A DNA stretch of 64,000 nt from a virus (taxonomy: Duplodnaviria; Caudoviricetes): IMG/VR virus record IMGVR_UViG_3300024259_000011; one strand, given 5' to 3'. A program made the position numbers and the translations under genes. The first letter of the stretch is position 1. Each line of letters begins with the position of its first letter. Below the pieces are notes generated by a model. The model did not search any database and had not been told where the DNA came from. It was given only the letters and a program-made list of their open reading frames with translations. Positions 28,678-62,959 of this stretch are shown here, in pieces.

Positions 28678-28754
28678 TGGCTGGGGCGGCAGGACTCGAA
28701 CCTGCAACCTCCCGGGTAACAACCGGGTGTCCGTGCCTGTCGGACCTCACCCCA
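28678..28754 (-). tRNA. trnN: tRNA-Asn(GTT), atypical D-arm
   Basis: Cloverleaf TGGGGTG/CGCCCCA, CCCGG-TTGTTAC-CCGGG, TTCGAGT T-loop, G73, encoded CCA. Confidence 0.85.
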
Positions 28755-28799
28755 CTATTTAGTTCTATAGTAAATAGTTTGCTTTTCTGTGTTCTCCTG

Positions 28800-28875
28800 T
28801 GGTGGGTCAACTGGGGCTTGAACCCAGAACCTACGGGTTAAAAGCCCGGTGCTCTACCAATTGAGCTATTGACCC
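28800..28875 (-). tRNA. trnK: tRNA-Lys(TTT)
   Basis: GGGTCAA/TTGACCC acceptor, CTTTTAA loop, TTCAAGC T-loop, CCA. Confidence 0.93.
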
Positions 28876-28884
28876 ATAAAAAAT

Positions 28885-29013
28885 GCTCCCCAGCATCGAC
28901 TCGACCAAACACGTTTCATCGGGCTTGTCACCCTCCACGCCATCTGCATTGCAATTTAGTCCTCATGGCGATCTGCACGTAGGCGCTTTTCCGGGGCGCC
29001 GCTGAACGGGAGC
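28885..29013 (-). ncRNA. Candidate structured ncRNA between tRNA-Gly and tRNA-Lys
   Basis: Closing helix GCTCCC..CAGC/GCTG-GGGAGC with inner hairpins GGCGC/GCGCC, CGCCAT/ATGGCG and GGG/CCC; no credible ORF. Confidence 0.5.
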
Positions 29014-29022
29014 GGAAAGGAA

Positions 29023-29097
29023 TGGAGCGGGAAACGAGATTTGAACTCGCGACCCTCACGTTGGCAACGTGATGCTCTACCACTGAGCTATTCCCGC
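29023..29097 (-). tRNA. trnG: tRNA-Gly(GCC)
   Basis: Canonical GCGGGAA...TTGCCAA...TTCCCGCTCCA. Confidence 0.96.
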
Positions 29098-29103
29098 ATT
29101 CAA

Positions 29104-29613
29104 CTATTTATCGCTTTGCTTTGCGCGACCATAGCCCTTTTTCCATTCCTGTTTTTCTGTACTCTTTTCAATCCCGGGATGAGGGGCTTTTTTCCGGCGC
29201 TTATTAACCAAATCGCTGCTGCTTTCGATTTTATCGCCGCCGACATTCCAAATCATTTCGATGTCCAACTCTTCGCAAACTTGTACTTCTGGAACGTTAT
29301 CGGACTTTCGATCTCCACCATTAGCAAAGTACGTTGGCTTTAAACGCCGTAGAGCCTCGCACACGGTCTCATCGTGGTCGTCTACCCATTCTACCCTTAT
29401 TACGCCCTTCAGCGCCTCTAAAATCTCTTTTCGCTGATTCCATGGCATAAACACAAATCCTTTTTTGCGAAATAGCCATGAGTCACTGTTAGCAACAACA
29501 ATAACATCGCCGTACTCGGCGGCTGCTAAAATCATCCTAACGTGTCCGATATGTACGGGGTCGAACCCCCCTGAAACTACTACCGTGTCATACGGTGTTC
29601 TTGCTTTTGTCAT
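29104..29613 (-). CDS. Cytidylyltransferase-like protein (HIGH family; TagD/RfaE-like)
   Basis: SGGFDPVHIGH, VVANSD and ANGGDR motifs. Confidence 0.88.
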   Translation of the reverse strand: MTKARTPYDTVVVSGGFDPVHIGHVRMILAAAEYGDVIVVANSDSWLFRKKGFVFMPWNQRKEILEALKGVIRVEWVDDHDETVCEALRRLKPTYFANGGDRKSDNVPEVQVCEELDIEMIWNVGGDKIESSSDLVNKRRKKAPHPGIEKSTEKQEWKKGYGRAKQSDK

Positions 29614-29779
29614 TGATTATTCCCTCCTCAATCATGTGTTTAGCGTTTCGTCCGAACCAGCCCTGTAAAGACCATGCCAGCCCAGTATCAACCAAGTGTT
29701 GCCAAGCCGCAATGACTTGTTCCTTGCTTTCTGGTTCTAAGAACCCTTCAGCGATACCGATTGCTTCAAAATTTGTCAT
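29588..29779 (-). CDS. Conserved phage hypothetical protein
   Basis: WQHLVDTGLAWSLQGWFGR motif recurrent in phage small proteins. Confidence 0.7.
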   Translation of the reverse strand: MTNFEAIGIAEGFLEPESKEQVIAAWQHLVDTGLAWSLQGWFGRNAKHMIEEGIINDKSKNTV

Positions 29780-29784
29780 ATATG

Positions 29785-29861
29785 TGGTACTCCGAGTAGG
29801 ACTTGAACCTACGACCCACAGCTTAGAAGGCTGTTGCTCTATCCAACTGAGCTACCGGAGC
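29785..29861 (-). tRNA. trnR: tRNA-Arg(TCT)
   Basis: GCTCCGG/TCGGAGT acceptor, CTTCTAA loop, CCA. Confidence 0.95.
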
Positions 29862-37764: not shown

Positions 37765-38136
37765 TGGTGGAGGCGGCGGGAATCGAACCCGCGTCCAGAA
37801 TAAGTCTAATTGTAGTCGTTCACAAGTTTATTCAGTTTTGGTGCAACGAAACTGAAAAAGTTGACTATCTTGATCTGATCCCACCGTTGCCGGCGATAGC
37901 CTTTGAATCAGATATGGTTTGGTGGTTTTAAGATACCGCTTACCACCCTGTTGCAGCATCTACTCAAATTGGATAGAAGGTTTTGAGTGACCTCCCGATT
38001 AAGCCGCTAGGCGTACAGAATCGAAGTGGTTATTGTTATTAGCAATTATGTTTTGTATCTGCGTTTAAAGTCTGCTGGTACGTTTGACTACTTGCACTTT
38101 TCCTCTTTCCTACCCTGTCGAAACCGGGGCGCCCCC
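37765..38136 (-). ncRNA. ssrA: tmRNA, tag ANNNNHFDSVRLAA
   Basis: 5' GGGGGCG..TTCGAC; 3' GGTTCGATTCCCGCCGCCTCCACCA; G3-U70 pair; ATAATT before the GCT resume codon; tag ORF at 37999-38043. Confidence 0.93.
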
Positions 38137-56874: not shown

Positions 56875-57674
56875 TAGCTCACACCTCGGTGCTTTTTGAT
56901 GTGGCGCTCCTCGACCAGTACCGGACGCATAGCGCCGATGGGCAGAACCTTATACTTTCGGTTGCCGCGACACGCACTAGAGATCACCTCATCCGTTGTG
57001 ATGACCAAGCCGCCACGCTTTAGTTGCCCCTTTGTGCGACCATCGCAACCAGCAGCGGGCAGCACCGTTGTACCAATCGGATACTTGGCATCTGCTGCGT
57101 AGCCAGCCAGTACTTTGCTAGCATACTTGTTAGCCGTGATACTTTTGTATTGCTTTGCAGTCGGCACGAAACTCTGATCATTAATAATGCGATCTGCGAG
57201 ATCACGATAATAACCGGTTGTCCAATAGTAGCGAGCGCAGCGCACAGCGATCAGGCGCTTGGCTTCATCATACTCGCCAGCCCATGCGCGAGCCAACTTT
57301 ACAGACTCCTCGCTGTATCGTTCGCTGATCTTATTAAGTATATCGTTCTGCTTTGCTGAAAGCACGCGACCAGAATCGTTCTGCTCTGAAACACTATTGA
57401 TGAACGTACGATCCCATGAGCCCTCAGGCGCTCTGCTAGCTAACTGCGCTAGCTGTACGCTTAGCCCCTTGTCTGATAGCTCGTCACCGCGAGCCTCTAG
57501 TTGCGCTACTCGCTCTTTGACAATGAAAAAGTGGTGCTTACGTCCACTAGTCATCGCCTTGCCACTGCTCCAATGCCGATACAAAGACTCGATGAACGTG
57601 CGATCACGTCCAATCAGTCGCTTGCTGGCGACAAGGTTGCTAAATTCGATCTTCCAATTGGTTCGCTTGCTCAT
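56874..57674 (-). CDS. Hypothetical protein with C-terminal beta-barrel-like segment
   Basis: 266-aa ORF with GGGAG RBS; first gene after promoter-like element 57718-57747. Confidence 0.75.
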   Translation of the reverse strand: MSKRTNWKIEFSNLVASKRLIGRDRTFIESLYRHWSSGKAMTSGRKHHFFIVKERVAQLEARGDELSDKGLSVQLAQLASRAPEGSWDRTFINSVSEQNDSGRVLSAKQNDILNKISERYSEESVKLARAWAGEYDEAKRLIAVRCARYYWTTGYYRDLADRIINDQSFVPTAKQYKSITANKYASKVLAGYAADAKYPIGTTVLPAAGCDGRTKGQLKRGGLVITTDEVISSACRGNRKYKVLPIGAMRPVLVEERHIKKHRGVS

Positions 57675-57717
57675 GTAAGGTTCTCCCGGCGGGCTATCCG
57701 CTCTAACTCTCTATGAG

Positions 57718-57747
57718 TTAGACGTTGGGACAGCCAATTTTATTCAA
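57718..57747 (-). promoter_or_regulatory. TTGAAT-N17-CGTCTAA promoter-like element, copy 1
   Basis: Conserved boxes at fixed spacing. Confidence 0.7.
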
Positions 57748-57766
57748 TGAAAAGTGGAAATATCTG

Positions 57767-57842
57767 AAAAAAAGTGCGGGTCCAAGGGCGGCGCTGCGTT
57801 GGATTTAGAGAGAGAGCGCAGCATATGCGACCCTCGACCCGC
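57767..57842 (-). terminator. Long hairpin with U7 tail; probable intrinsic terminator and possible sRNA
   Basis: GCGGGTC/GACCCGC, AGGG/CCCT and GCTGCG/CGCAGC stems followed by ACTTTTTTT on the minus strand. Confidence 0.65.
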
Positions 57843-57861
57843 GTGAAGTGGTTGGGCTCCC

Positions 57862-58128
57862 TTAGGAGCCCTTGACGGACCACAGATCGTGCTTCTGTGA
57901 GTCTGTCTGTGGTGTGCGCTCGGCAGTACCGAAACGCGGTCCAGCTTTCTTGCTCAGTGCCTCGACCAACGGATCGAGCGAGCCAAGTGCTGACAGTCGC
58001 GCATGCACGTCCATCACAAAAGGTACATCATCGTTCCGCGTCACTGTGTCCCACAGCGCGATGGCTGCATCTGGGTCACTGGCTAGCAGGTCAGCGATGA
58101 CCTTTGAATAGTTTTCTGCTACTGACAT
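57862..58128 (-). CDS. Hypothetical protein
   Basis: 88-aa ORF with AAGGAG RBS. Confidence 0.7.
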   Translation of the reverse strand: MSVAENYSKVIADLLASDPDAAIALWDTVTRNDDVPFVMDVHARLSALGSLDPLVEALSKKAGPRFGTAERTPQTDSQKHDLWSVKGS

Positions 58129-58187
58129 TTTATATGTCTCCTTTGAAAGTTTAATGATTCTAGGGGGTTACCGCTAGGGCAGAGCAT

Positions 58188-59285
58188 TTAGCTCTGCGAC
58201 CCAGCAAGAACCTCCACGATGAATGAGGTAACAAGGGTTCCATCACTGGCAGTTGACTGGTGCAACTTGACACAGTTCTGAACCTCGTTGCCCTCAGCAC
58301 CGGCGACGGTCCACAGCTTCATAGCAACCTCGGAAGGAAGGCTAATAAAGTAATCAGCAAGGTTCTGGATCTGCTCGGCAGTCAGTTCTTCCTTGAAGAT
58401 CTCAAGTGCTTCCATCTTTTCGACAAGCGCACTGTGATCGTTGATGCCAAAGTCCTTGGTACGGTCAATCTGACCGTCATCAATGATGTTCTCAACAGTC
58501 ACTTGAGCCTCATAAGTCTTGATAAAGTCTTGAAGCGCAACAGCAGCCTCAAACCCAACGAACGCGGTCGCAAGGTTAAAGATTGTGCCAGCATCCTGCT
58601 TGATGGACTCCTCGGCAAGCAGACCCGCACTAGACAGGCACTCGCTGAGACGATCCCATGAGCGACGAGAAGGGTAAACCTTGTTTGGCTCAAACTCGCC
58701 TTGATGCTCAAGGTGGTTACGGTTGGTGTTAATAAAGTCCCAAACCAGACCATCAACATTGTCCTTGCCCCAAGCAAGCCAATCTTCAGTAGTAGGCTCG
58801 ACATCGAACACGGTCCAGCGGTCAAGCTCAGCCGGGTCCATTTCGCCAACTTGGTATTGAGCGCCATGCTCTCCACCGTTGACAGCAGCGAAGATCAGAG
58901 TCTCCGGGTGCAAGGTCCAGCCCGCAATCTTGCGGCTATCGGTAAGCTCAAAGATCCCTTGACGGACCTCCATCGTCGCACGATCAACCTCGTCCAAGAA
59001 CAGGACAACAGGCTCGGTGCATGCTTGAATCAGCCAGCTAAACGGGCGAAACTGCGAACAGCCAACACCGTTGACCTCCGCGAGTTCTGCGGAAGGCATA
59101 CCGAGAAGGTCACCTTCTGTCATCTGAGAAGCACGACGCTCCACAACAGGCAGACCGGCAGCACCGGCAAATTGGTAAACCACTTGTGACTTGCCGACAC
59201 CGTGACGACCGCGCAGAAGCACAGGCTTACGGACGCGGGTGACGTGGGGAACGACGCTTTGGAAGGTCTTAAAATCTACAGGCAT
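58188..59285 (-). CDS. MoxR-like AAA+ ATPase
   Basis: GRHGVGKS Walker A, LFLDEVDRA Walker B, AAVN, MDPAELDRW and PSRRSW. Confidence 0.9.
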   Translation of the reverse strand: MPVDFKTFQSVVPHVTRVRKPVLLRGRHGVGKSQVVYQFAGAAGLPVVERRASQMTEGDLLGMPSAELAEVNGVGCSQFRPFSWLIQACTEPVVLFLDEVDRATMEVRQGIFELTDSRKIAGWTLHPETLIFAAVNGGEHGAQYQVGEMDPAELDRWTVFDVEPTTEDWLAWGKDNVDGLVWDFINTNRNHLEHQGEFEPNKVYPSRRSWDRLSECLSSAGLLAEESIKQDAGTIFNLATAFVGFEAAVALQDFIKTYEAQVTVENIIDDGQIDRTKDFGINDHSALVEKMEALEIFKEELTAEQIQNLADYFISLPSEVAMKLWTVAGAEGNEVQNCVKLHQSTASDGTLVTSFIVEVLAGSQS

Positions 59286-59349
59286 TTTTCTCTCTCTCTT
59301 TTTGGGTGGGCATCCCTGCCCGGTTGTTCTCTCTAACTAACTACATTAG

Positions 59350-59379
59350 TTAGACGTATTCGGAACCAGTTTTATTCAA
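59350..59379 (-). promoter_or_regulatory. TTGAAT-N17-CGTCTAA element, copy 2
   Basis: Conserved boxes. Confidence 0.7.
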
Positions 59380-59443
59380 TCTTTTTTGATCTTTTCTGAA
59401 ATAAAGTCGGTTTTCATGCCGTTCTCTCTCTTTGGTACATCTA

Positions 59444-59473
59444 TTAGACGTATGGGGCGCTGGTTTTATTCAA
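59444..59473 (-). promoter_or_regulatory. TTGAAT-N17-CGTCTAA element, copy 3 (tandem with copy 2)
   Basis: Conserved boxes; followed by an AAAGAGAGAG leader and a 13-codon ORF (59376-59417). Confidence 0.7.
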
Positions 59474-59508
59474 TCTTTCTTAAAGAAAGTTGATCTTTTT
59501 TCTCATGC

Positions 59509-59781
59509 TCAGCCCGGTCGATCCAGCAGATGACCGCGCTCACGGAGTTCTAGAAGGTTAATAATCGACAGTGCAGCCTCGGTCAATCGCCATTCATCGA
59601 GCCAGCCTCCGGGTCCGAAAGCATCCGGCTCACCTGCACAGTGACGCTCGACTAGCCCTGATAGCACAAGGTAGTCCACAGCTTCACGGGTATGCTCGGT
59701 GAGATCCGGCAAACAAGTCCATTCGGGTCGGATGGTGTCTAGCACAATTCGCTCATGGGTAGTTAGGTCAAAGTTATTCAT
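59509..59781 (-). CDS. Hypothetical protein, possible winged-helix
   Basis: EAVDYLVLSGLVE...WRLT pattern. Confidence 0.55.
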   Translation of the reverse strand: MNNFDLTTHERIVLDTIRPEWTCLPDLTEHTREAVDYLVLSGLVERHCAGEPDAFGPGGWLDEWRLTEAALSIINLLELRERGHLLDRPG

Positions 59782-59785
59782 TGTC

Positions 59786-59986
59786 TTACCAGTTTACCGG
59801 GTCGTTGCCGCACTCGGTTTCAATCGTTGGGCTAGCTGTACCCTTCATCATTCGCTCAGCCTTGGCTTCGGATGCTTCCAGTCGGTCTAGCGCATTGTTC
59901 AGTTTGTTAAGGATCTCGCGATCTCGCTGTGGGTGGAGTAGGCTCAAGACCTTGGAGATCTCAATCTTTGAAAGGTTAATATTCAT
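59786..59986 (-). CDS. Hypothetical protein
   Basis: Start at MNINLS after AAGGGAAG. Confidence 0.55.
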   Translation of the reverse strand: MNINLSKIEISKVLSLLHPQRDREILNKLNNALDRLEASEAKAERMMKGTASPTIETECGNDPVNW

Positions 59987-59993
59987 GCTTCCC

Positions 59994-61217
59994 TTAGTCA
60001 TCAATGGCGATGATACGTTCGTTGGTTTGAAAATATGGACGCTTCGCGTAATAAGCAGTGGTCATCCACATGCGCTGCGCGTTGCAGTTCTTAGGCTTCG
60101 GAGCCATCAGGTCCGTGAGGACGATCATGCCATCATAGCCATTCTTGTTGCAGTGGTCGGTTGGCGGGTTGAAATCTGTACCTCCGCACATCACACGCTC
60201 CCACTTACGACGCTCGCCCTTCTTCCAGACGAAAACCTTATCCTCGGCAACGTCGGTATCGAATGGAACCACGGTAAACTCGGCAAGCTGCGCTAGCTTC
60301 TCCAACTCGGTGAAGAACGCAGCAAGCATGCCATCATCCACAGAACCGGACTGATCAATATAGATGCCGATGCGGGCAATACGGTTGACCTTCTTGCCGG
60401 GGTGAATGTAGCGGTAACGCTTGTTCAGACGCTTGACGGTCGATGACCGGTTAGCGCGCTGAGTAGTCTTGACAAAGTAACGGAGTACTTTCTTCCAATC
60501 GACCTTTGGAGTGATACGCTCCATGATCTCTTGGCGAGTTTGGCGAGACACCGAACCCCAAGAGTTTGCGCGGCTGGCTTCCTCGGCAGCGTTCTTCACG
60601 GCGTTCTTCAGTCGCTCTTTGGCGATCTCGTTCAGGGTGTTGTCACTCTGACCCTCGCCCCAACCGGAGTGATCATCAAAGCTGTCCATGTTTCCACGTC
60701 CACCGTTGCCTTGACCATCGCCAGAGCCGTCGCCGTCACCCTCGCCGCCTTCGCCACCGTCGCCTTCCTCAGATTCCTGCTCCTCTTTGTTTTCTTCCTT
60801 CTTCAAGGTGTTGTAGTACCACTCGGCAGACTTGCCAAGGGGCAGATCAGCGAACGGACCTTGACCGGGCATACAGCACATATCGGGCAACTCGCCAATA
60901 AGGTGCGAGTTGATGGCAAGGTCGGTGGCGATGTTCCACAGCTTAGACATGCCACCTTCGGGAAGGCGACCGGTCACATGCTCAAAAACAAGGTGGTAAA
61001 ACTCATGCTTGAGGACACCCAGCTTTTCCTTGTCAGTCAGAGTCTCAAAAAACTCAGGGTTGTAGAGCATGACAAAGTGACCAGTATCCTTGTCAACCTT
61101 GACGCCAGCAGTAGGGAGTGCAGTGGACGAACGCTTGTCAATCCGGCGCGAAAGCGCGGCAAAGAAGGGCTCATCCATCAGAAGGCGGGCAGTGTGCTTG
61201 TTTAGGTCAAAGTTCAT
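59994..61217 (-). CDS. Metallopeptidase-like (HExxH) plus VWA domain protein (DUF2201-like), MoxR partner
   Basis: LKHEFYHL, WNIATDLAIN, acidic Gly linker, IDQSGSV MIDAS, GGTDF and VLTD. Confidence 0.88.
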   Translation of the reverse strand: MNFDLNKHTARLLMDEPFFAALSRRIDKRSSTALPTAGVKVDKDTGHFVMLYNPEFFETLTDKEKLGVLKHEFYHLVFEHVTGRLPEGGMSKLWNIATDLAINSHLIGELPDMCCMPGQGPFADLPLGKSAEWYYNTLKKEENKEEQESEEGDGGEGGEGDGDGSGDGQGNGGRGNMDSFDDHSGWGEGQSDNTLNEIAKERLKNAVKNAAEEASRANSWGSVSRQTRQEIMERITPKVDWKKVLRYFVKTTQRANRSSTVKRLNKRYRYIHPGKKVNRIARIGIYIDQSGSVDDGMLAAFFTELEKLAQLAEFTVVPFDTDVAEDKVFVWKKGERRKWERVMCGGTDFNPPTDHCNKNGYDGMIVLTDLMAPKPKNCNAQRMWMTTAYYAKRPYFQTNERIIAIDD

Positions 61218-61243
61218 AGTTCTCTCTCTCTTTGGTACATATA

Positions 61244-61272
61244 TTAGACGGCTGGGCTTCGGTTTTATTCAA
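61244..61272 (-). promoter_or_regulatory. TTGAAT-N16-CGTCTAA element, copy 4
   Basis: Conserved boxes with a spacer one base shorter. Confidence 0.7.
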
Positions 61273-61344
61273 TGAAAAGTGATCTTTTTTTCACTTTTCT
61301 TCAAATATCCTTAATAACTAGGTTCAAAGCCGGGAATGGGGCGA

Positions 61345-62061
61345 TTACTCGCCCGATGCAGCGTCAATATCTCTCCAGTAGTAGTAGTCTCTCGACTCGC
61401 CCTTCTTAAAGGGGCTGTGGCTCAATTCGGAAGCCTTCAGGTCAAGACTCTGTTCCTCCCAATCACCGGGCAGACTTTGATTGATCTGGTCAACAGTCAC
61501 CGGAGCCACAACCGAATAGCCATTATATGTAGACTCATCCTGCTCATCGATCTGCATGCTAGTCGGACGCTGCGCCGGGTTCAATGGTCGCAGTCTCGCC
61601 TTCACGCACTTATCTTTCGGGTGAACGAATCGGCACTCGATAGATTCAACCAGATACATAGACTTATCGCCGTATGATGTTCTTTCAACCATCGCGCCGA
61701 TGCCGATGCCTTGCTCAATCATCATAGACCGTGCAGCAGCGCGAGTCTCAGCGGTTAGCACCGCGTAAGTTGTAATATCGCTAGCAAGTGTAGTACACTT
61801 GCGGCGGTTGTGACCGGATTCCTTGCAGTAGGAACACTTGCGACCCCACGATTCATTCCGGCGTGTACGTTTCGCGCCAGTCTCAGGGTTCACACCCGTC
61901 ATCCTAGCAACCTGCCTTGCATAGTATTCGACATGCGCGCCTTCTTGCTTAGCGCTTTCAAGGCGCTTCTGCGCACGCTCCAGCTTGACCGGGCATGTGC
62001 GCGAGTTGTGTCCTTCGTTGTAGCAGTAGCCGCATCTGATTGTTCCGTTGTAATTTCCCAT
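61345..62061 (-). CDS. Protein with two CCHC zinc knuckles
   Basis: CGYCYNEGHNSRTC and CSYCKESGHNRRKC. Confidence 0.8.
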   Translation of the reverse strand: MGNYNGTIRCGYCYNEGHNSRTCPVKLERAQKRLESAKQEGAHVEYYARQVARMTGVNPETGAKRTRRNESWGRKCSYCKESGHNRRKCTTLASDITTYAVLTAETRAAARSMMIEQGIGIGAMVERTSYGDKSMYLVESIECRFVHPKDKCVKARLRPLNPAQRPTSMQIDEQDESTYNGYSVVAPVTVDQINQSLPGDWEEQSLDLKASELSHSPFKKGESRDYYYWRDIDAASGE

Positions 62062-62094
62062 TTAGTTTACCTCTCTCTTTGCTTGGTACATCTA

Positions 62095-62124
62095 TTAGAC
62101 GTGTCGGGGGCTGGTTTTATTCAA
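62095..62124 (-). promoter_or_regulatory. TTGAAT-N17-CGTCTAA element, copy 5
   Basis: Conserved boxes. Confidence 0.7.
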
Positions 62125-62211
62125 TCTTTTTGAAAGAAAAGTGATCTTTTTTTCGATCTCTCTCAACCCGATCCCCTACTGACTCTTCGATTATACCACA
62201 GGTTAATAATA

Positions 62212-62490
62212 TTACCGGACAGAAAATGTCCGACCTGCAAGCTCCCCTGAAAAGGCAGGTTCAACCTCGATTTCTTCAAGGGGCAACCAGCCTTGCCAGC
62301 TTTCACGCCCACCTTTGCCGTTGCTAGCGCGGCGCGTTTGCGCTTCCAGCCTCAACGCAGGGCGATGACCCATGCAAAGCACGGAGTTGCGAGCATCACA
62401 GACGCGGAACAGCGGTCCATGCTCGCGGATACGGTTCTTCGTGCGGCTGCACGCTTTGTCGTTCCACTTTAGTTTAATAAAATCAGCCAC
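62212..62490 (-). CDS. Hypothetical protein
   Basis: 92-aa ORF coupled to the upstream gene. Confidence 0.65.
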   Translation of the reverse strand: MADFIKLKWNDKACSRTKNRIREHGPLFRVCDARNSVLCMGHRPALRLEAQTRRASNGKGGRESWQGWLPLEEIEVEPAFSGELAGRTFSVR

Positions 62491-62707
62491 TTACGACCTC
62501 CAAATCATGCGCCAGCATCCTGCGGGTTGCTCTACCAGATGTGCGACCGATGAATTTAACGGTGTGAATGGAGAACTGCCCGTTGGCGGGGCAATCCTCG
62601 TCGATCAGGTCTGGCGAGGTTTCTTCAACCTTAATGATCAGAGCCATCGAGCCCTTGGGAACGCCAATCATGGCGCGACTTGTGCAGATTAAATCACCTA
62701 CTTTCAT
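62483..62707 (-). CDS. Small KVGD-type beta-barrel protein
   Basis: MKVGDLIC...ALII...VKF...DLEVVS. Confidence 0.7.
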   Translation of the reverse strand: MKVGDLICTSRAMIGVPKGSMALIIKVEETSPDLIDEDCPANGQFSIHTVKFIGRTSGRATRRMLAHDLEVVSG

Positions 62708-62861
62708 TTACCAACTCCATAAAGCCGCTACACTCCACAATGGGCTTGCTCCTGTTGTTCCACAGCACCCACACATCACCAGATTTAGCCCATCGCTTTA
62801 TGCAAGGCGCAGTAACAATGCCCAATATACCTTTGTGTCTTACTAAATCACCGACCTTCAT
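62694..62861 (-). CDS. Small KVGD-type beta-barrel protein (55 aa)
   Basis: Hand-translated MKVGDLVRHKGILGIVT...VWVLW...MELVNESR. Confidence 0.7.
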   Translation of the reverse strand: MKVGDLVRHKGILGIVTAPCIKRWAKSGDVWVLWNNRSKPIVECSGFMELVNESR

Positions 62862-62932
62862 GCTGATAGCTCCGCGACAAGACCAAGTAGACCGATGGTC
62901 GTTGAAATAATCATAAAAGTAGCAATAGTCAT
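62858..62932 (-). CDS. 24-aa hydrophobic peptide MTIATFMIISTTIGLLGLVAELSA
   Basis: First ORF after element copy 6; ATGA overlap with the next gene. Confidence 0.55.
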   Translation of the reverse strand: MTIATFMIISTTIGLLGLVAELSA

Positions 62933-62959
62933 AGTTTCCCTCTCTTTGTTGCTTACTTA

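What the first reader, a model, noticed from the sequence alone, without database searches (positions are those of the whole stretch)
57767..57871. Terminator-ending hairpin whose loop (UCUCUCUCU) is antisense to the AGAGAGAG leaders of the early genes
Seen: the 3' UTR of the MoxR operon forms GGGCTCC/GGAGCCC and then a 67-nt three-segment stem ending in U7, with loop TCTCTCTCTAAATCCA (57800-57815). The early leaders carry AAAGAGAGAG(AG) at the ribosome-binding position: 59289, 59423, 61221, 62071, 63991 and a shorter copy at 62940. Known: 3'UTR-derived sRNAs repress translation by loop seed pairing at the RBS. Inference: a negative-feedback sRNA that switches off the whole early regulon, including its own operon.
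Basis: partly seen in the sequence, partly recalled or inferred. Interest (0 to 1): 0.75.

Follow-up and report, generated by a model that had tools for sequence, protein, structure and literature searches.

The report
Phage terminator loop pairs with leaders
In a widespread uncultured marine phage, the hairpin that ends an early operon has a CU-repeat at its tip that is complementary to the GA-repeat ribosome-binding leaders of that operon. Related phages keep this 5'-3' complementarity using different sequences, which suggests an RNA-RNA switch that limits early protein synthesis; no RNA data test this yet.

Summary
On the minus strand, the AAA(MoxR-like) ATPase / 88-aa operon ends in a small hairpin (57871-57854) and a long intrinsic terminator (57843-57776, then U7). 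Its 18-nt apical loop (57816-57799) starts with (CU)5. Six leaders carry (GA)3.5-5 three to nine nt before a start codon.

In this window alone the CU run is about what chance gives. The comparative evidence makes it real:
- Ten relatives (ATPase 88-96% identical) keep CUCUCUC in the loop while the stems diverge with compensatory changes.
- A second, non-sister clade has the same GA-leader / CU-loop pair.
- Other lineages have different complementary pairs between the ATPase leader or ribosome site and its 3' end.
- Across 167 loci, 12% of cognate pairs share 10 nt or more of perfect complementarity, against 1.4% of non-cognate pairs. At cluster level that is 6 observed against 0.61 expected.
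- The match is 10-fold enriched over other intergenic DNA and is almost always inverted, not direct.

No RNA species, repression or cis/trans mode has been shown. In one clade, composition alone explains the match. It is a new variant of a known kind.

The parts
57799..57816 (-). 18-nt apical loop CUCUCUCUCUAAAUCCAA; (CU)5 is the proposed anti-leader/anti-SD seed
   Evidence: Unpaired in the MFE and centroid folds. CUCUCUC is invariant in 11 related hairpins. Best duplexes are with the ATPase and vWA leaders.
57776..57843 (-). Long three-segment stem of the terminator hairpin
   Evidence: Folds. The consensus structure has 17 pairs, 6 of them with compensatory double changes, in the WIN subtype. 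A second subtype has 18 pairs, 3 compensatory.
57767..57773 (-). U7 tract that completes the intrinsic terminator
   Evidence: Sequence. T-rich tails follow the hairpin in all relatives.
57854..57871 (-). Small upstream hairpin GGGCUCC-UAAG-GGAGCCC with the stop codon of the 88-aa ORF in its loop
   Evidence: A hairpin at the same place, with changed sequence, is seen in L184 and L161-L163.
57862..58128 (-). 88-aa ORF of unknown function, last gene before the terminator; canonical AAGGAG ribosome site
   Evidence: No Pfam or PHROG match. A 79-88-aa ORF lies at this place in the WIN clade only.
58188..59285 (-). AAA+ (MoxR-like, AAA_5) ATPase gene whose leader is the best target
   Evidence: Pfam AAA_5 and PHROG 1297 ATPase. 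Used to fetch more than 300 related loci.
59286..59303 (-). ATPase leader, AAAAAGAGAGAGAGAAAA, directly before the AUG; (GA)5 is complementary to the loop over 10 nt
   Evidence: Duplex -19.0 kcal/mol, the best of 95 start regions and of the whole window. Loop shuffles give p = 0.022; none of 1000 leader shuffles reaches it.
61218..61233 (-). Leader of the vWA/DUF2201 metallopeptidase gene (61217-59994), with (GA)5
   Evidence: 10-nt perfect complement. -17.6 kcal/mol, second best in the window.
62062..62080 (-). Leader of the 238-aa gene, with AAAGAGAGAG
   Evidence: 8-nt complement. -13.8 kcal/mol.
59418..59433 (-). Leader AAAGAGAGAG before a 13-codon micro-ORF that overlaps the next promoter
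   Evidence: -14.9 kcal/mol.
62933..62947 (-). Shorter leader copy, AAAGAGAGGG, before a 24-codon ORF
   Evidence: -14.0 kcal/mol.
63985..64000 (-). Leader AAAGAGAGAG at the window edge, before a 23-24-codon ORF
   Evidence: -13.8 kcal/mol.
57718..57748 (-). Next copy of the repeated promoter (ATTGAATAAAA-N-ACGTCTAA), about 20 nt after the U tract; terminator plus promoter form a composite unit
   Evidence: The same layout occurs in all relatives.

Best explanation
The hairpin is the intrinsic terminator shared by the transcripts of the promoter-rich early-type cluster. Promoters lie at about 62990, 62125, 61273, 59474 and 59380, and I found no other strong terminator between them and 57767.

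Its apical loop shows a single-stranded (CU)5 seed. This seed pairs, RNA to RNA, with the (GA)n tracts that occupy the ribosome-binding position of the leaders. The best partners are the ATPase leader and the leader of its vWA partner gene.

Because the seed sits at the 3' end of the same transcripts, I propose that it acts mainly on them. Once the terminator is made, the 3' loop can fold back on a leader and block further ribosome loading. Each mRNA would then be translated mostly while it is still being transcribed. This is a 5'-3' UTR closure of the kind shown for icaR.

Shown here: the structure, the conserved loop, the complementarity, its co-variation across the phage family, and its strand specificity.

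Inferred: that pairing happens in the cell, that it represses rather than stabilises, and that it works in cis.
For: 1. Stable terminator with an unpaired loop. CUCUCUC is the only invariant block in 11 related hairpins whose stems diverge with compensatory changes.
2. In the WIN clade, sense-strand CTCTCTC occurs in effect only in that loop. GA tracts recur 3-9 nt before the same early start codons and are longest at the vWA and ATPase genes.
3. The GA-leader / CU-loop pair occurs in two well-supported clades that are not sisters. In the complete 204-kb genome of L049, CTCTCTCTC and GAGAGAGAG each occur twice on the sense strand, and one of each flanks the ATPase gene. The sister of the WIN clade, L165, has a GGAG leader and no CU loop.
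4. Other lineages keep leader/3'-end complementarity with different four-letter sequences. Examples are UCCUAUCUCC with GGAGAUAGGA, UUCACUCCGGU with ACCGGAGUGAA, and UCCUUGGGGAAGG with CCUUCCCCAAGGA. L187 and L217 differ by one compensatory change.
5. Statistics: 10 nt or more of perfect complement in 20 of 167 cognate pairs against 1.4% of non-cognate pairs. In 69 clusters, 6 observed against 0.61 expected, p about 5e-5. Enrichment is 17-fold over the rest of the sense strand and 10.5-fold over other intergenic DNA of the same loci.
6. Orientation: 19 inverted against 2 direct matches of 10 nt or more, and the 2 direct ones are promoter -10 elements.
7. The anti-sequence occurs once in each of the 16 loci tested; the target is always at the ATPase's own leader and sometimes also at one or two others.
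Against: - No RNA evidence exists. The only RNA data are low-depth contigs that show neither ends nor strand.
- The seed is low-complexity. In the L081/L083/L234 clade the duplex energy is no better than for dinucleotide shuffles of the loop (p = 0.28-0.57), so pyrimidine-rich against purine-rich composition explains those matches.
- For WIN itself the loop-shuffle p is only 0.022.
- Only about 12% of the 167 loci show a match of 10 nt or more, so the feature is not universal in the family.
- In several phages the loop segments are not colinear with the leader segments. Both helices could then form only in a pseudoknot-like complex, or alternately.
- Positions flanking the matches show no excess of G:U over A:C.
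- A 10-bp helix inside an 18-nt loop is sterically demanding.
- The host, and so its anti-SD sequence and RNA chaperones, is unknown.
Confidence: 0.45

Rival explanations
1. First reader's model. The terminator hairpin, with or without the upstream small hairpin, accumulates as a stable 3'UTR-derived small RNA. It acts in trans on all GA leaders and switches off the whole early regulon, its own operon included.
For: - The same complementarity evidence as above applies.
- In WIN six leaders share the GA motif and rank at the top of predicted targets.
- In L082, L083, L177 and L187 the loop matches two or three leaders equally well.
- A long stable hairpin plus a U7 tail is the usual 3' module of such sRNAs (established knowledge; OppZ/CarZ, PMC7398697).
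Against: - No stable RNA has been observed.
- In L049 only the ATPase leader carries the target. Across the family the only constant partner is the gene's own leader.
- In some lineages the anti-sequence lies right after the stop codon or in the 5' arm of the terminator, not in an exposed loop. That suits a cis element better than a processed sRNA.
Confidence: 0.2
2. The pyrimidine loop is conserved for a reason other than pairing. Examples are a binding site for a protein (a CU-tract binding or RNA-decay factor, a chaperone or a phage regulator) or a loop kept unstructured for termination. Its complementarity to purine-rich ribosome-binding leaders would then be a by-product of composition.
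For: - Shuffled pyrimidine loops pair about as well with the leaders in the L081/L083/L234 clade.
- Ribosome-binding regions are purine-rich everywhere.
- Flanks show no G:U excess.
Against: - It does not explain the four-letter matches of 10-13 nt in other lineages.
- It does not explain the L187/L217 compensatory change.
- It does not explain the co-occurrence of (GA)5 and (CU)5 around a single gene in a 204-kb genome.
- It does not explain the cognate-specific enrichment.
Confidence: 0.15
3. DNA-level element. The same double-stranded site, an operator for a phage or host DNA-binding protein, lies at the leaders and, flipped, in front of the next promoter.
For: - A reverse-complement pair is the same dsDNA site in opposite orientation.
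- The site in the hairpin lies about 50-70 bp upstream of the next promoter.
- In the L084/L321-325 lineage the site is partly palindromic, CCTT-N4-AAGG.
Against: - Orientation is almost always inverted: 19 against 2, and the 2 direct matches are -10 boxes. An orientation-free dsDNA site would not give this.
- The site sits in the single-stranded tip of a strong RNA hairpin or directly after the stop codon.
- The target overlaps the ribosome-binding position.
Confidence: 0.05
4. Long-range attenuation. A leader that is not covered by ribosomes pairs with the loop or 5' arm of the terminator, weakens termination and allows read-through into the next gene. In most relatives that gene is the ATPase's vWA partner.
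For: - In L320 and L183 the anti-sequence overlaps the 5' arm of the terminator.
- The downstream gene is vWA in most lineages.
Against: - The downstream gene has its own promoter directly after the terminator in every lineage.
- In WIN the vWA gene is upstream.
- Pairing with a loop does not prevent stem formation.
Confidence: 0.05
5. Chance. A low-complexity CU run happens to lie in a terminator loop.
For: One CU run per strand in 64 kb is about the expected number.
Against: - Conservation of the run in 10 relatives with diverged stems.
- A second clade with the same pair.
- Family-level statistics.
Confidence: 0.05

Closest known systems
icaR mRNA of Staphylococcus aureus: 3'UTR UCCCCUG motif pairing with the Shine-Dalgarno region of the same mRNA (Ruiz de los Mozos et al. 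2013, PMC3868564; abstract read)
   Same: A pyrimidine anti-SD motif in the 3'UTR is complementary to the ribosome-binding region of its own transcript. The expected outcome is a block of initiation.
   Different: - The motif here lies in the apical loop of the intrinsic terminator, not in a long 3'UTR.
- It is in a lytic-type phage.
- The target is a GA repeat rather than a canonical SD.
- It is kept by co-variation across many phage lineages.
- No experimental proof and no RNase III evidence exist.
Autoregulatory 3'UTR-derived sRNAs OppZ and CarZ of Vibrio cholerae (Hoyos et al. 2020, PMC7398697; found)
   Same: A regulator made from the 3' end of an operon, sharing its terminator, feeds back on the same operon by base pairing.
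   Different: - OppZ is a proven RNase E product that needs Hfq and acts through Rho-dependent termination inside the operon.
- Here no processed RNA is shown, and the target is the ribosome-binding leader.
C-rich hairpin loops 7, 13 and 14 of S. aureus RNAIII that bind G-rich SD regions (Chevalier et al. 2010, PMC2837412; read)
   Same: Pyrimidine-rich apical loops of stable hairpins serve as seeds against ribosome-binding sites of several functionally related mRNAs.
   Different: - RNAIII is an independent 514-nt regulator (length from own knowledge).
- Its loops carry UCCC, not a CU repeat.
- Here there is one loop at an mRNA 3' end.
PeSL composite terminator/early-promoter motifs of T4-type phages (Arbiol 2010, PMC2839356; Comeau 2014, PMC4122927; the latter read)
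   Same: A stem-loop terminator directly followed by an early-type promoter, in a gene cluster that is rearranged among relatives.
   Different: - PeSLs are many near-identical short stem-loops linked to recombinational shuffling; no loop-leader pairing is described for them.
- Here only one of six promoter copies has the hairpin.
- The hairpin is long, and the conserved part is its loop.
T4 RegA (translational repressor) and RegB (endoribonuclease cutting GGAG in early ribosome sites); own knowledge, with review PMC3014915 listed but not read
   Same: Post-transcriptional shut-off of early genes at their ribosome-binding sites.
   Different: - These are proteins, not RNA.
- No RegA (PF01818) or RegB (PF10715) match was found in five complete related genomes. 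The control genomes were silent too, so absence is not proven.
c4 antisense RNA of phages P1/P7 (own knowledge; Rfam C4)
   Same: A phage RNA, made from the same transcript as its target, uses loop segments to mask a ribosome-binding site.
   Different: - c4 lies upstream of its target, is processed by RNase P and belongs to an immunity system.
- No Rfam family matches this region even at E = 1 or less.

Membership tests
Intrinsic (Rho-independent) terminator | Stable G+C-rich hairpin directly followed by a U tract at the end of a transcription unit | tested here: met
   The hairpin alone (57842-57776) folds at -34.1 kcal/mol; 'AC' and U7 follow. It lies after the last ORF of the operon and before the next promoter. 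The simple scanner missed it because its loop exceeds 8 nt.
Intrinsic (Rho-independent) terminator | Transcripts end there | not testable with these tools
   Only assembled RNA contigs were available, and they cannot show ends.
5'-3' UTR anti-SD interaction (icaR type) | 3'UTR motif complementary to the ribosome-binding region of the same mRNA | tested here: met
   A 10-nt perfect complement between the loop and the ATPase leader 5 nt before the AUG, -19.0 kcal/mol.
5'-3' UTR anti-SD interaction (icaR type) | Complementarity maintained in evolution (co-variation) | tested here: met
   Exception: in the L081/L083/L234 clade it is explained by composition.
5'-3' UTR anti-SD interaction (icaR type) | Pairing blocks 30S binding and/or creates an RNase III substrate | not testable with these tools
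   Needs toeprinting, reporters or cleavage assays.
3'UTR-derived sRNA (OppZ/CarZ, CpxQ type) | Located at an mRNA 3' end and sharing its terminator | tested here: met
3'UTR-derived sRNA (OppZ/CarZ, CpxQ type) | Conserved single-stranded seed complementary to targets | tested here: met
3'UTR-derived sRNA (OppZ/CarZ, CpxQ type) | A discrete stable RNA species released by processing or made from an internal promoter | not testable with these tools
   No raw-read RNA run holds the phage. The contigs bridge terminator and promoter and are uninformative.
PeSL (promoter-early stem-loop) of T4-type phages | Stem-loop terminator directly joined to an early promoter | tested here: met
   About 20 nt separate the U tract (57767) from the promoter cassette (57748-57718).
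PeSL (promoter-early stem-loop) of T4-type phages | The composite motif is repeated many times with a conserved short stem-loop | tested here: not met
   Six promoter copies lie in the window, and only this one follows a hairpin.
Any described RNA family (Rfam 15, including C4 antisense RNA) | Covariance-model match | tested here: not met
   No match at gathering score in the window, other than the tmRNA and tRNAs. None at E = 1 or less in 57600-58000.

The most novel reading that the evidence does not exclude
A whole family of abundant marine phages keeps a co-evolving 5'-3' closed loop in the mRNA of its MoxR-type ATPase and, in some members, of all early genes. An anti-ribosome-site sequence is built into the terminator, so each transcript is translatable only until its own 3' end has been made. 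This would be a transcription-coupled timer for early gene expression. It would be the first conserved 5'UTR-3'UTR interaction described for a virus of bacteria, to my knowledge and as far as the paper searches here show.
Probability: 0.3. Interest if true: 0.78.

Novelty: new variant of a known kind. Interest (0 to 1): 0.6.

Why it matters
Regulation from bacterial 3'UTRs, by cis 5'-3' pairing or by 3'-derived sRNAs, rests on a handful of experimentally studied cases, and evolutionary support for them is thin. How large lytic phages outside T4 shut off early translation is largely unknown.

Here the sequence data alone give a testable element with a clear compensatory-mutation design. The same principle recurs with different sequences in many lineages of an abundant ocean phage group: its DNA was held by runs from at least 15 studies. 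That amounts to a natural co-variation experiment.

If confirmed, it would add an RNA-only counterpart to RegA/RegB-type early shut-off. It would also show that terminator loops can carry regulatory seeds in phages.

Tried and rejected
- **DNA similarity to isolated phages:** none, near or distant. The best protein matches are only 27% identical. The whole genome is not held.
- **First duplex-energy matrix** (leader against the 110 nt after the stop): uninformative. The wrong region was used for the WIN clade, and RNAduplex allowed very long interior loops.
- **Plain MAFFT/RNAalifold on all 11 hairpins**: failed to recover the stems because two stem subtypes are unalignable. Folding the subtypes separately worked.
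- **My simple terminator finder** and the tool's scanner: both missed the hairpin because of its long loop and bulges.
- **RNA runs:** two RNA rows with small shares in the first search, three in the second. Only Logan contigs at depth 3-7 were laid. Two contigs (57590-57875 and 57683-57911) bridge terminator and promoter. They give no ends, no strand and no proof of transcription.
- **More relatives from IMG/VR for two clades:** none beyond those already held.
- **G:U against A:C asymmetry in positions flanking the matches:** no signal (29 against 54), so no extra support for RNA-level pairing.
- **Antisense reading** (a plus-strand micro-ORF with ATG at 57825 behind GAGAGAGAG): rejected. It has no promoter, and the ATG is absent in L161.
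- **Leader hairpin-loop to terminator-loop kissing through GGAU/AUCC:** present in WIN and L161-L163 but not in L001, L159 or L160, so not pursued.
- **Downstream-gene SD as the main target:** supported only in L081 (9 nt), not in other lineages.
- **RegA/RegB searches:** no matches, but the controls were silent, so absence is not shown.

Full report
**What is there**

All genes of the window lie on the minus strand. Read on that strand, the right-hand 6 kb holds six copies of one promoter-leader cassette. Each cassette has an A/T-rich box, ATTGAATAAAA, about 13 nt of spacer, ACGTCTAA, and then a purine leader. The copies start at 62990, 62125, 61273, 59474, 59380 and 57748.

The cassettes drive these genes:
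- small ORFs;
- a 238-aa protein;
- a vWA/DUF2201 metallopeptidase (61217-59994);
- an AAA_5 (MoxR-like) ATPase (59285-58188);
- an 88-aa ORF (58128-57862).

After the 88-aa ORF come three elements:
- a small hairpin (57871-57854) with the stop codon in its loop;
- a long three-segment hairpin (57843-57776) with an 18-nt apical loop, CUCUCUCUCUAAAUCCAA (57816-57799);
- 'AC' and then U7 (57773-57767).

The region folds at -55.7 kcal/mol, z = -5.7, with the loop unpaired. About 20 nt further on the next promoter copy begins. I found no other convincing intrinsic terminator between the upstream promoters and this point. Transcripts from all five upstream promoters probably share this 3' end; that is an inference.

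Sense-strand GA tracts lie 3-9 nt before start codons at 59290-59303 (ATPase), 59424-59433, 61222-61233 (vWA), 62071-62080, 62938-62947 (one mismatch) and 63991-64000. Other genes of the window use ordinary GGAG-type ribosome sites, so the GA leaders are special to this cluster.

The loop's best predicted partners among 95 start regions are:
- the ATPase leader, -19.0 kcal/mol;
- the vWA leader, -17.6 kcal/mol;
- three small early ORFs and the 238-aa gene, -13.8 to -14.9 kcal/mol.

One non-early start region (9443) scores -16.3, through a duplex interrupted by internal loops. The median is -7. The ATPase and vWA leaders are also the two best sites on the whole 64-kb sense strand.

Taken alone, one CU run in 64 kb is no more than chance. 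The case rests on comparison with relatives.

**What the genome is**

There is no DNA match to isolated phages. The window carries four tRNAs and a tmRNA, PhoH and sugar-modifying enzymes. Relatives are 190-205-kb viral contigs from marine samples. Near-identical DNA is held by runs from at least 15 marine studies. Earlier notes of this scan call it a T4-like phage; I did not test that.

**Close relatives**

The ATPase protein retrieved IMG/VR and metagenome loci. Ten loci with 88-96% identical ATPase share the promoter type, the small ORF and the terminator (L157-L164, L184, L001). In all of them the apical loop (10-22 nt) contains CUCUCUC. The stems fall into two subtypes that cannot be aligned with each other:
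- In the first subtype, 6 of 17 pairs show compensatory double changes.
- In the second subtype, 3 of 18 pairs do.

The loop motif is therefore conserved while the stems only keep their pairing.

In these loci sense-strand CTCTCTC occurs in effect only in that loop. GA tracts precede the same set of early genes and are longest at the vWA and ATPase genes.

**A second, independent clade**

L049, L201, L217 and L187 have sigma-70-type promoters, and their terminator directly follows the ATPase. They also combine a (GA)4-5 ATPase leader with a (CU)4-6 terminator loop.

In an ATPase tree this clade and the WIN clade are each strongly supported and are not sisters. The tree needs two changes of the label, and the starred branches force them. 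The WIN clade's sister, L165, has a GGAG leader and no CU loop.

In L049's complete 203,859-bp genome, CTCTCTCTC and GAGAGAGAG each occur only twice on the sense strand. One of each flanks the ATPase gene.

L187 and L217 differ by one compensatory change: GAGAGAGAAU with AUUCUCUCUC, against GAGAGAGAAA with UUUCUCUCUC.

**Other lineages, other sequences**

Elsewhere in the family the 3' end of the ATPase unit is complementary to the gene's own leader through unrelated sequences:
- L177: loop UCCUAUCUCC with GGAGAUAGGA, directly before the AUG.
- L320: UUCACUCCGGU with ACCGGAGUGAA.
- L084 and L321-L325: UCCUUGGGGAAGG, right after the stop codon, with CCUUCCCCAAGGA (10-13 nt).
- L086 and L145: 11-nt matches.
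- L081, L083, L234 and L082: pyrimidine loops matching AAAGGAAA-type leaders.

In each of the 16 loci tested the anti-sequence occurs once. The target is always at the ATPase leader and sometimes also at one or two other leaders.

**Statistics**

Among 167 distinct loci, the longest perfect complement between the leader (-60 to +3) and the gene's own 3' region reaches 10 nt or more in 20 loci (12%). Only 1.4% of 27,722 non-cognate pairs reach that length.

With one arbitrarily chosen representative per 85%-identity cluster (69 clusters), 6 reach 10 nt against 0.61 expected. In 20,000 derangements the maximum was 6, so p is about 5e-5. Four of the six matches use three or four different letters.

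Within the same loci, 10-mers complementary to the leader occur at these densities (not corrected for relatedness):
- 0.91 per kb in the ATPase 3' region;
- 0.052 per kb elsewhere on the sense strand;
- 0.086 per kb in other intergenic DNA.

Orientation is telling. In the 75 nt after the stop (or in the hairpin region for the WIN clade), 19 loci have an inverted match of 10 nt or more and 2 have a direct one. Both direct matches are -10 boxes of the next promoter. An orientation-free DNA site would not behave so.

**Caveats**

- Dinucleotide-preserving shuffles of the loop give p = 0.022 (WIN), 0.011 (L049) and 0.046 (L217).
- The same shuffles give 0.16-0.17 for L001 and L187, and 0.28-0.57 for L081, L234 and L083. 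In those phages any pyrimidine-rich loop would pair about as well with the purine-rich leader, so their apparently specific matches carry little weight.
- In several phages the two matching loop segments are not colinear with the leader segments.
- Flanks of the matches show no G:U excess.
- Most loci (about 88%) show no match of 10 nt or more.
- There is no usable RNA evidence.
- No Rfam family matches.

**How it most likely works**

The element is an intrinsic terminator whose loop, or in some lineages its 5' flank, carries an anti-leader/anti-SD sequence.

Two facts favour a fold-back of the 3' end onto the leader of the same transcript. The constant partner across the family is the gene's own ribosome-binding leader. 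And in some lineages the anti-sequence lies directly after the stop codon rather than in an exposed loop.

The fold-back would block new ribosome loading once the transcript is complete. This works like the icaR 5'-3' UTR interaction (PMC3868564).

It resembles OppZ/CarZ (PMC7398697) and the C-rich loops of RNAIII (PMC2837412). It fits best in the WIN clade, where six leaders share the motif.

Both models predict the same sequences, and only experiments can separate them. Repression rather than stabilisation is inferred from the overlap with the ribosome-binding position.

The terminator-plus-promoter layout resembles PeSL motifs of T4-type phages (PMC4122927). It fails their defining repetition, however, because only one of six promoters has the hairpin.

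No RegA or RegB homologue was detected in five complete relatives. The control genomes were silent as well, so this shows little.

**Verdict**

The new result is comparative: leader/3'-end complementarity of the ATPase transcription unit recurs and co-varies across a large family of marine phages. I file it as a new variant of a known kind (3'UTR-borne anti-SD regulation), with moderate to high interest. The main uncertainties are the absence of RNA data and the low complexity of the seed in this particular window. An independent first-reader note on another genome (e1-5406043) describes the same arrangement after an AAA+ gene; I did not check it.

Noticed in passing
window 57718-62990 (minus strand); loci L074, L165: The repeated promoter of this clade reads TGAATA-N16-CGTCTAA. 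Most relatives have plain sigma-70-type TTGACx-N17-TATAxT promoters at the equivalent places, so the promoter type was switched within the family. Another note of this scan calls it ECF-like.
   Followed up: partly
window 59330-59345, 57700-57716; leaders in L011, L013, L014, L049 and others: Right after the -10 box, nearly all early leaders of the family share a box of the form (A)TGTA(A/G)GTT(A)GAGA(G/A)A(A)C. It is probably the 5' end of the transcripts. Its function is unknown, and in some phages the terminator loop is complementary to it.
   Followed up: partly
L018, L038, L040, L043, L064, L072, L076 leaders: Relatives with GGAG ribosome sites carry a pyrimidine tract (CCCUCCC or CUCUCUC) directly upstream of the GGAG. 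This could be a local SD-masking hairpin that does in cis what the terminator loop may do elsewhere.
   Followed up: no
window 59379-59417 (minus strand): A 13-codon micro-ORF behind a full promoter-leader cassette ends inside the next promoter (tandem promoters 59474 and 59380). 23-24-codon ORFs follow the leaders at 62947 and 64000.
   Followed up: no
window 57862-58128: The 88-aa ORF between the ATPase and the terminator occurs only in the WIN clade, with conserved LWD and HDLW motifs. It has no family match, and its stop codon sits in a conserved small hairpin loop.
   Followed up: partly
window 59994-61217 versus L007, L032, L049, L317-L326: Gene order differs. The vWA/DUF2201 partner lies upstream of the ATPase in the WIN clade but directly downstream, behind its own promoter, in most relatives.
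   Followed up: partly
window 37765-38136; 28678-29861: A phage-borne tmRNA (121.6 bits, tag ANNNNHFDSVRLAA) and four tRNAs (Asn, Lys, Gly, Arg).
   Followed up: no
G001-G005 (complete relatives of 190-205 kb): No match to the T4 RegA (PF01818) or RegB (PF10715) families. The control genomes did not ring either, so absence is not established.
   Followed up: partly
window 57683-57911 (RNA contig of run X25): A related strain differs at 57726, 57729, 57736, 57737 and 57860 and has an insertion at 57712. It has no difference inside the terminator hairpin.
   Followed up: no
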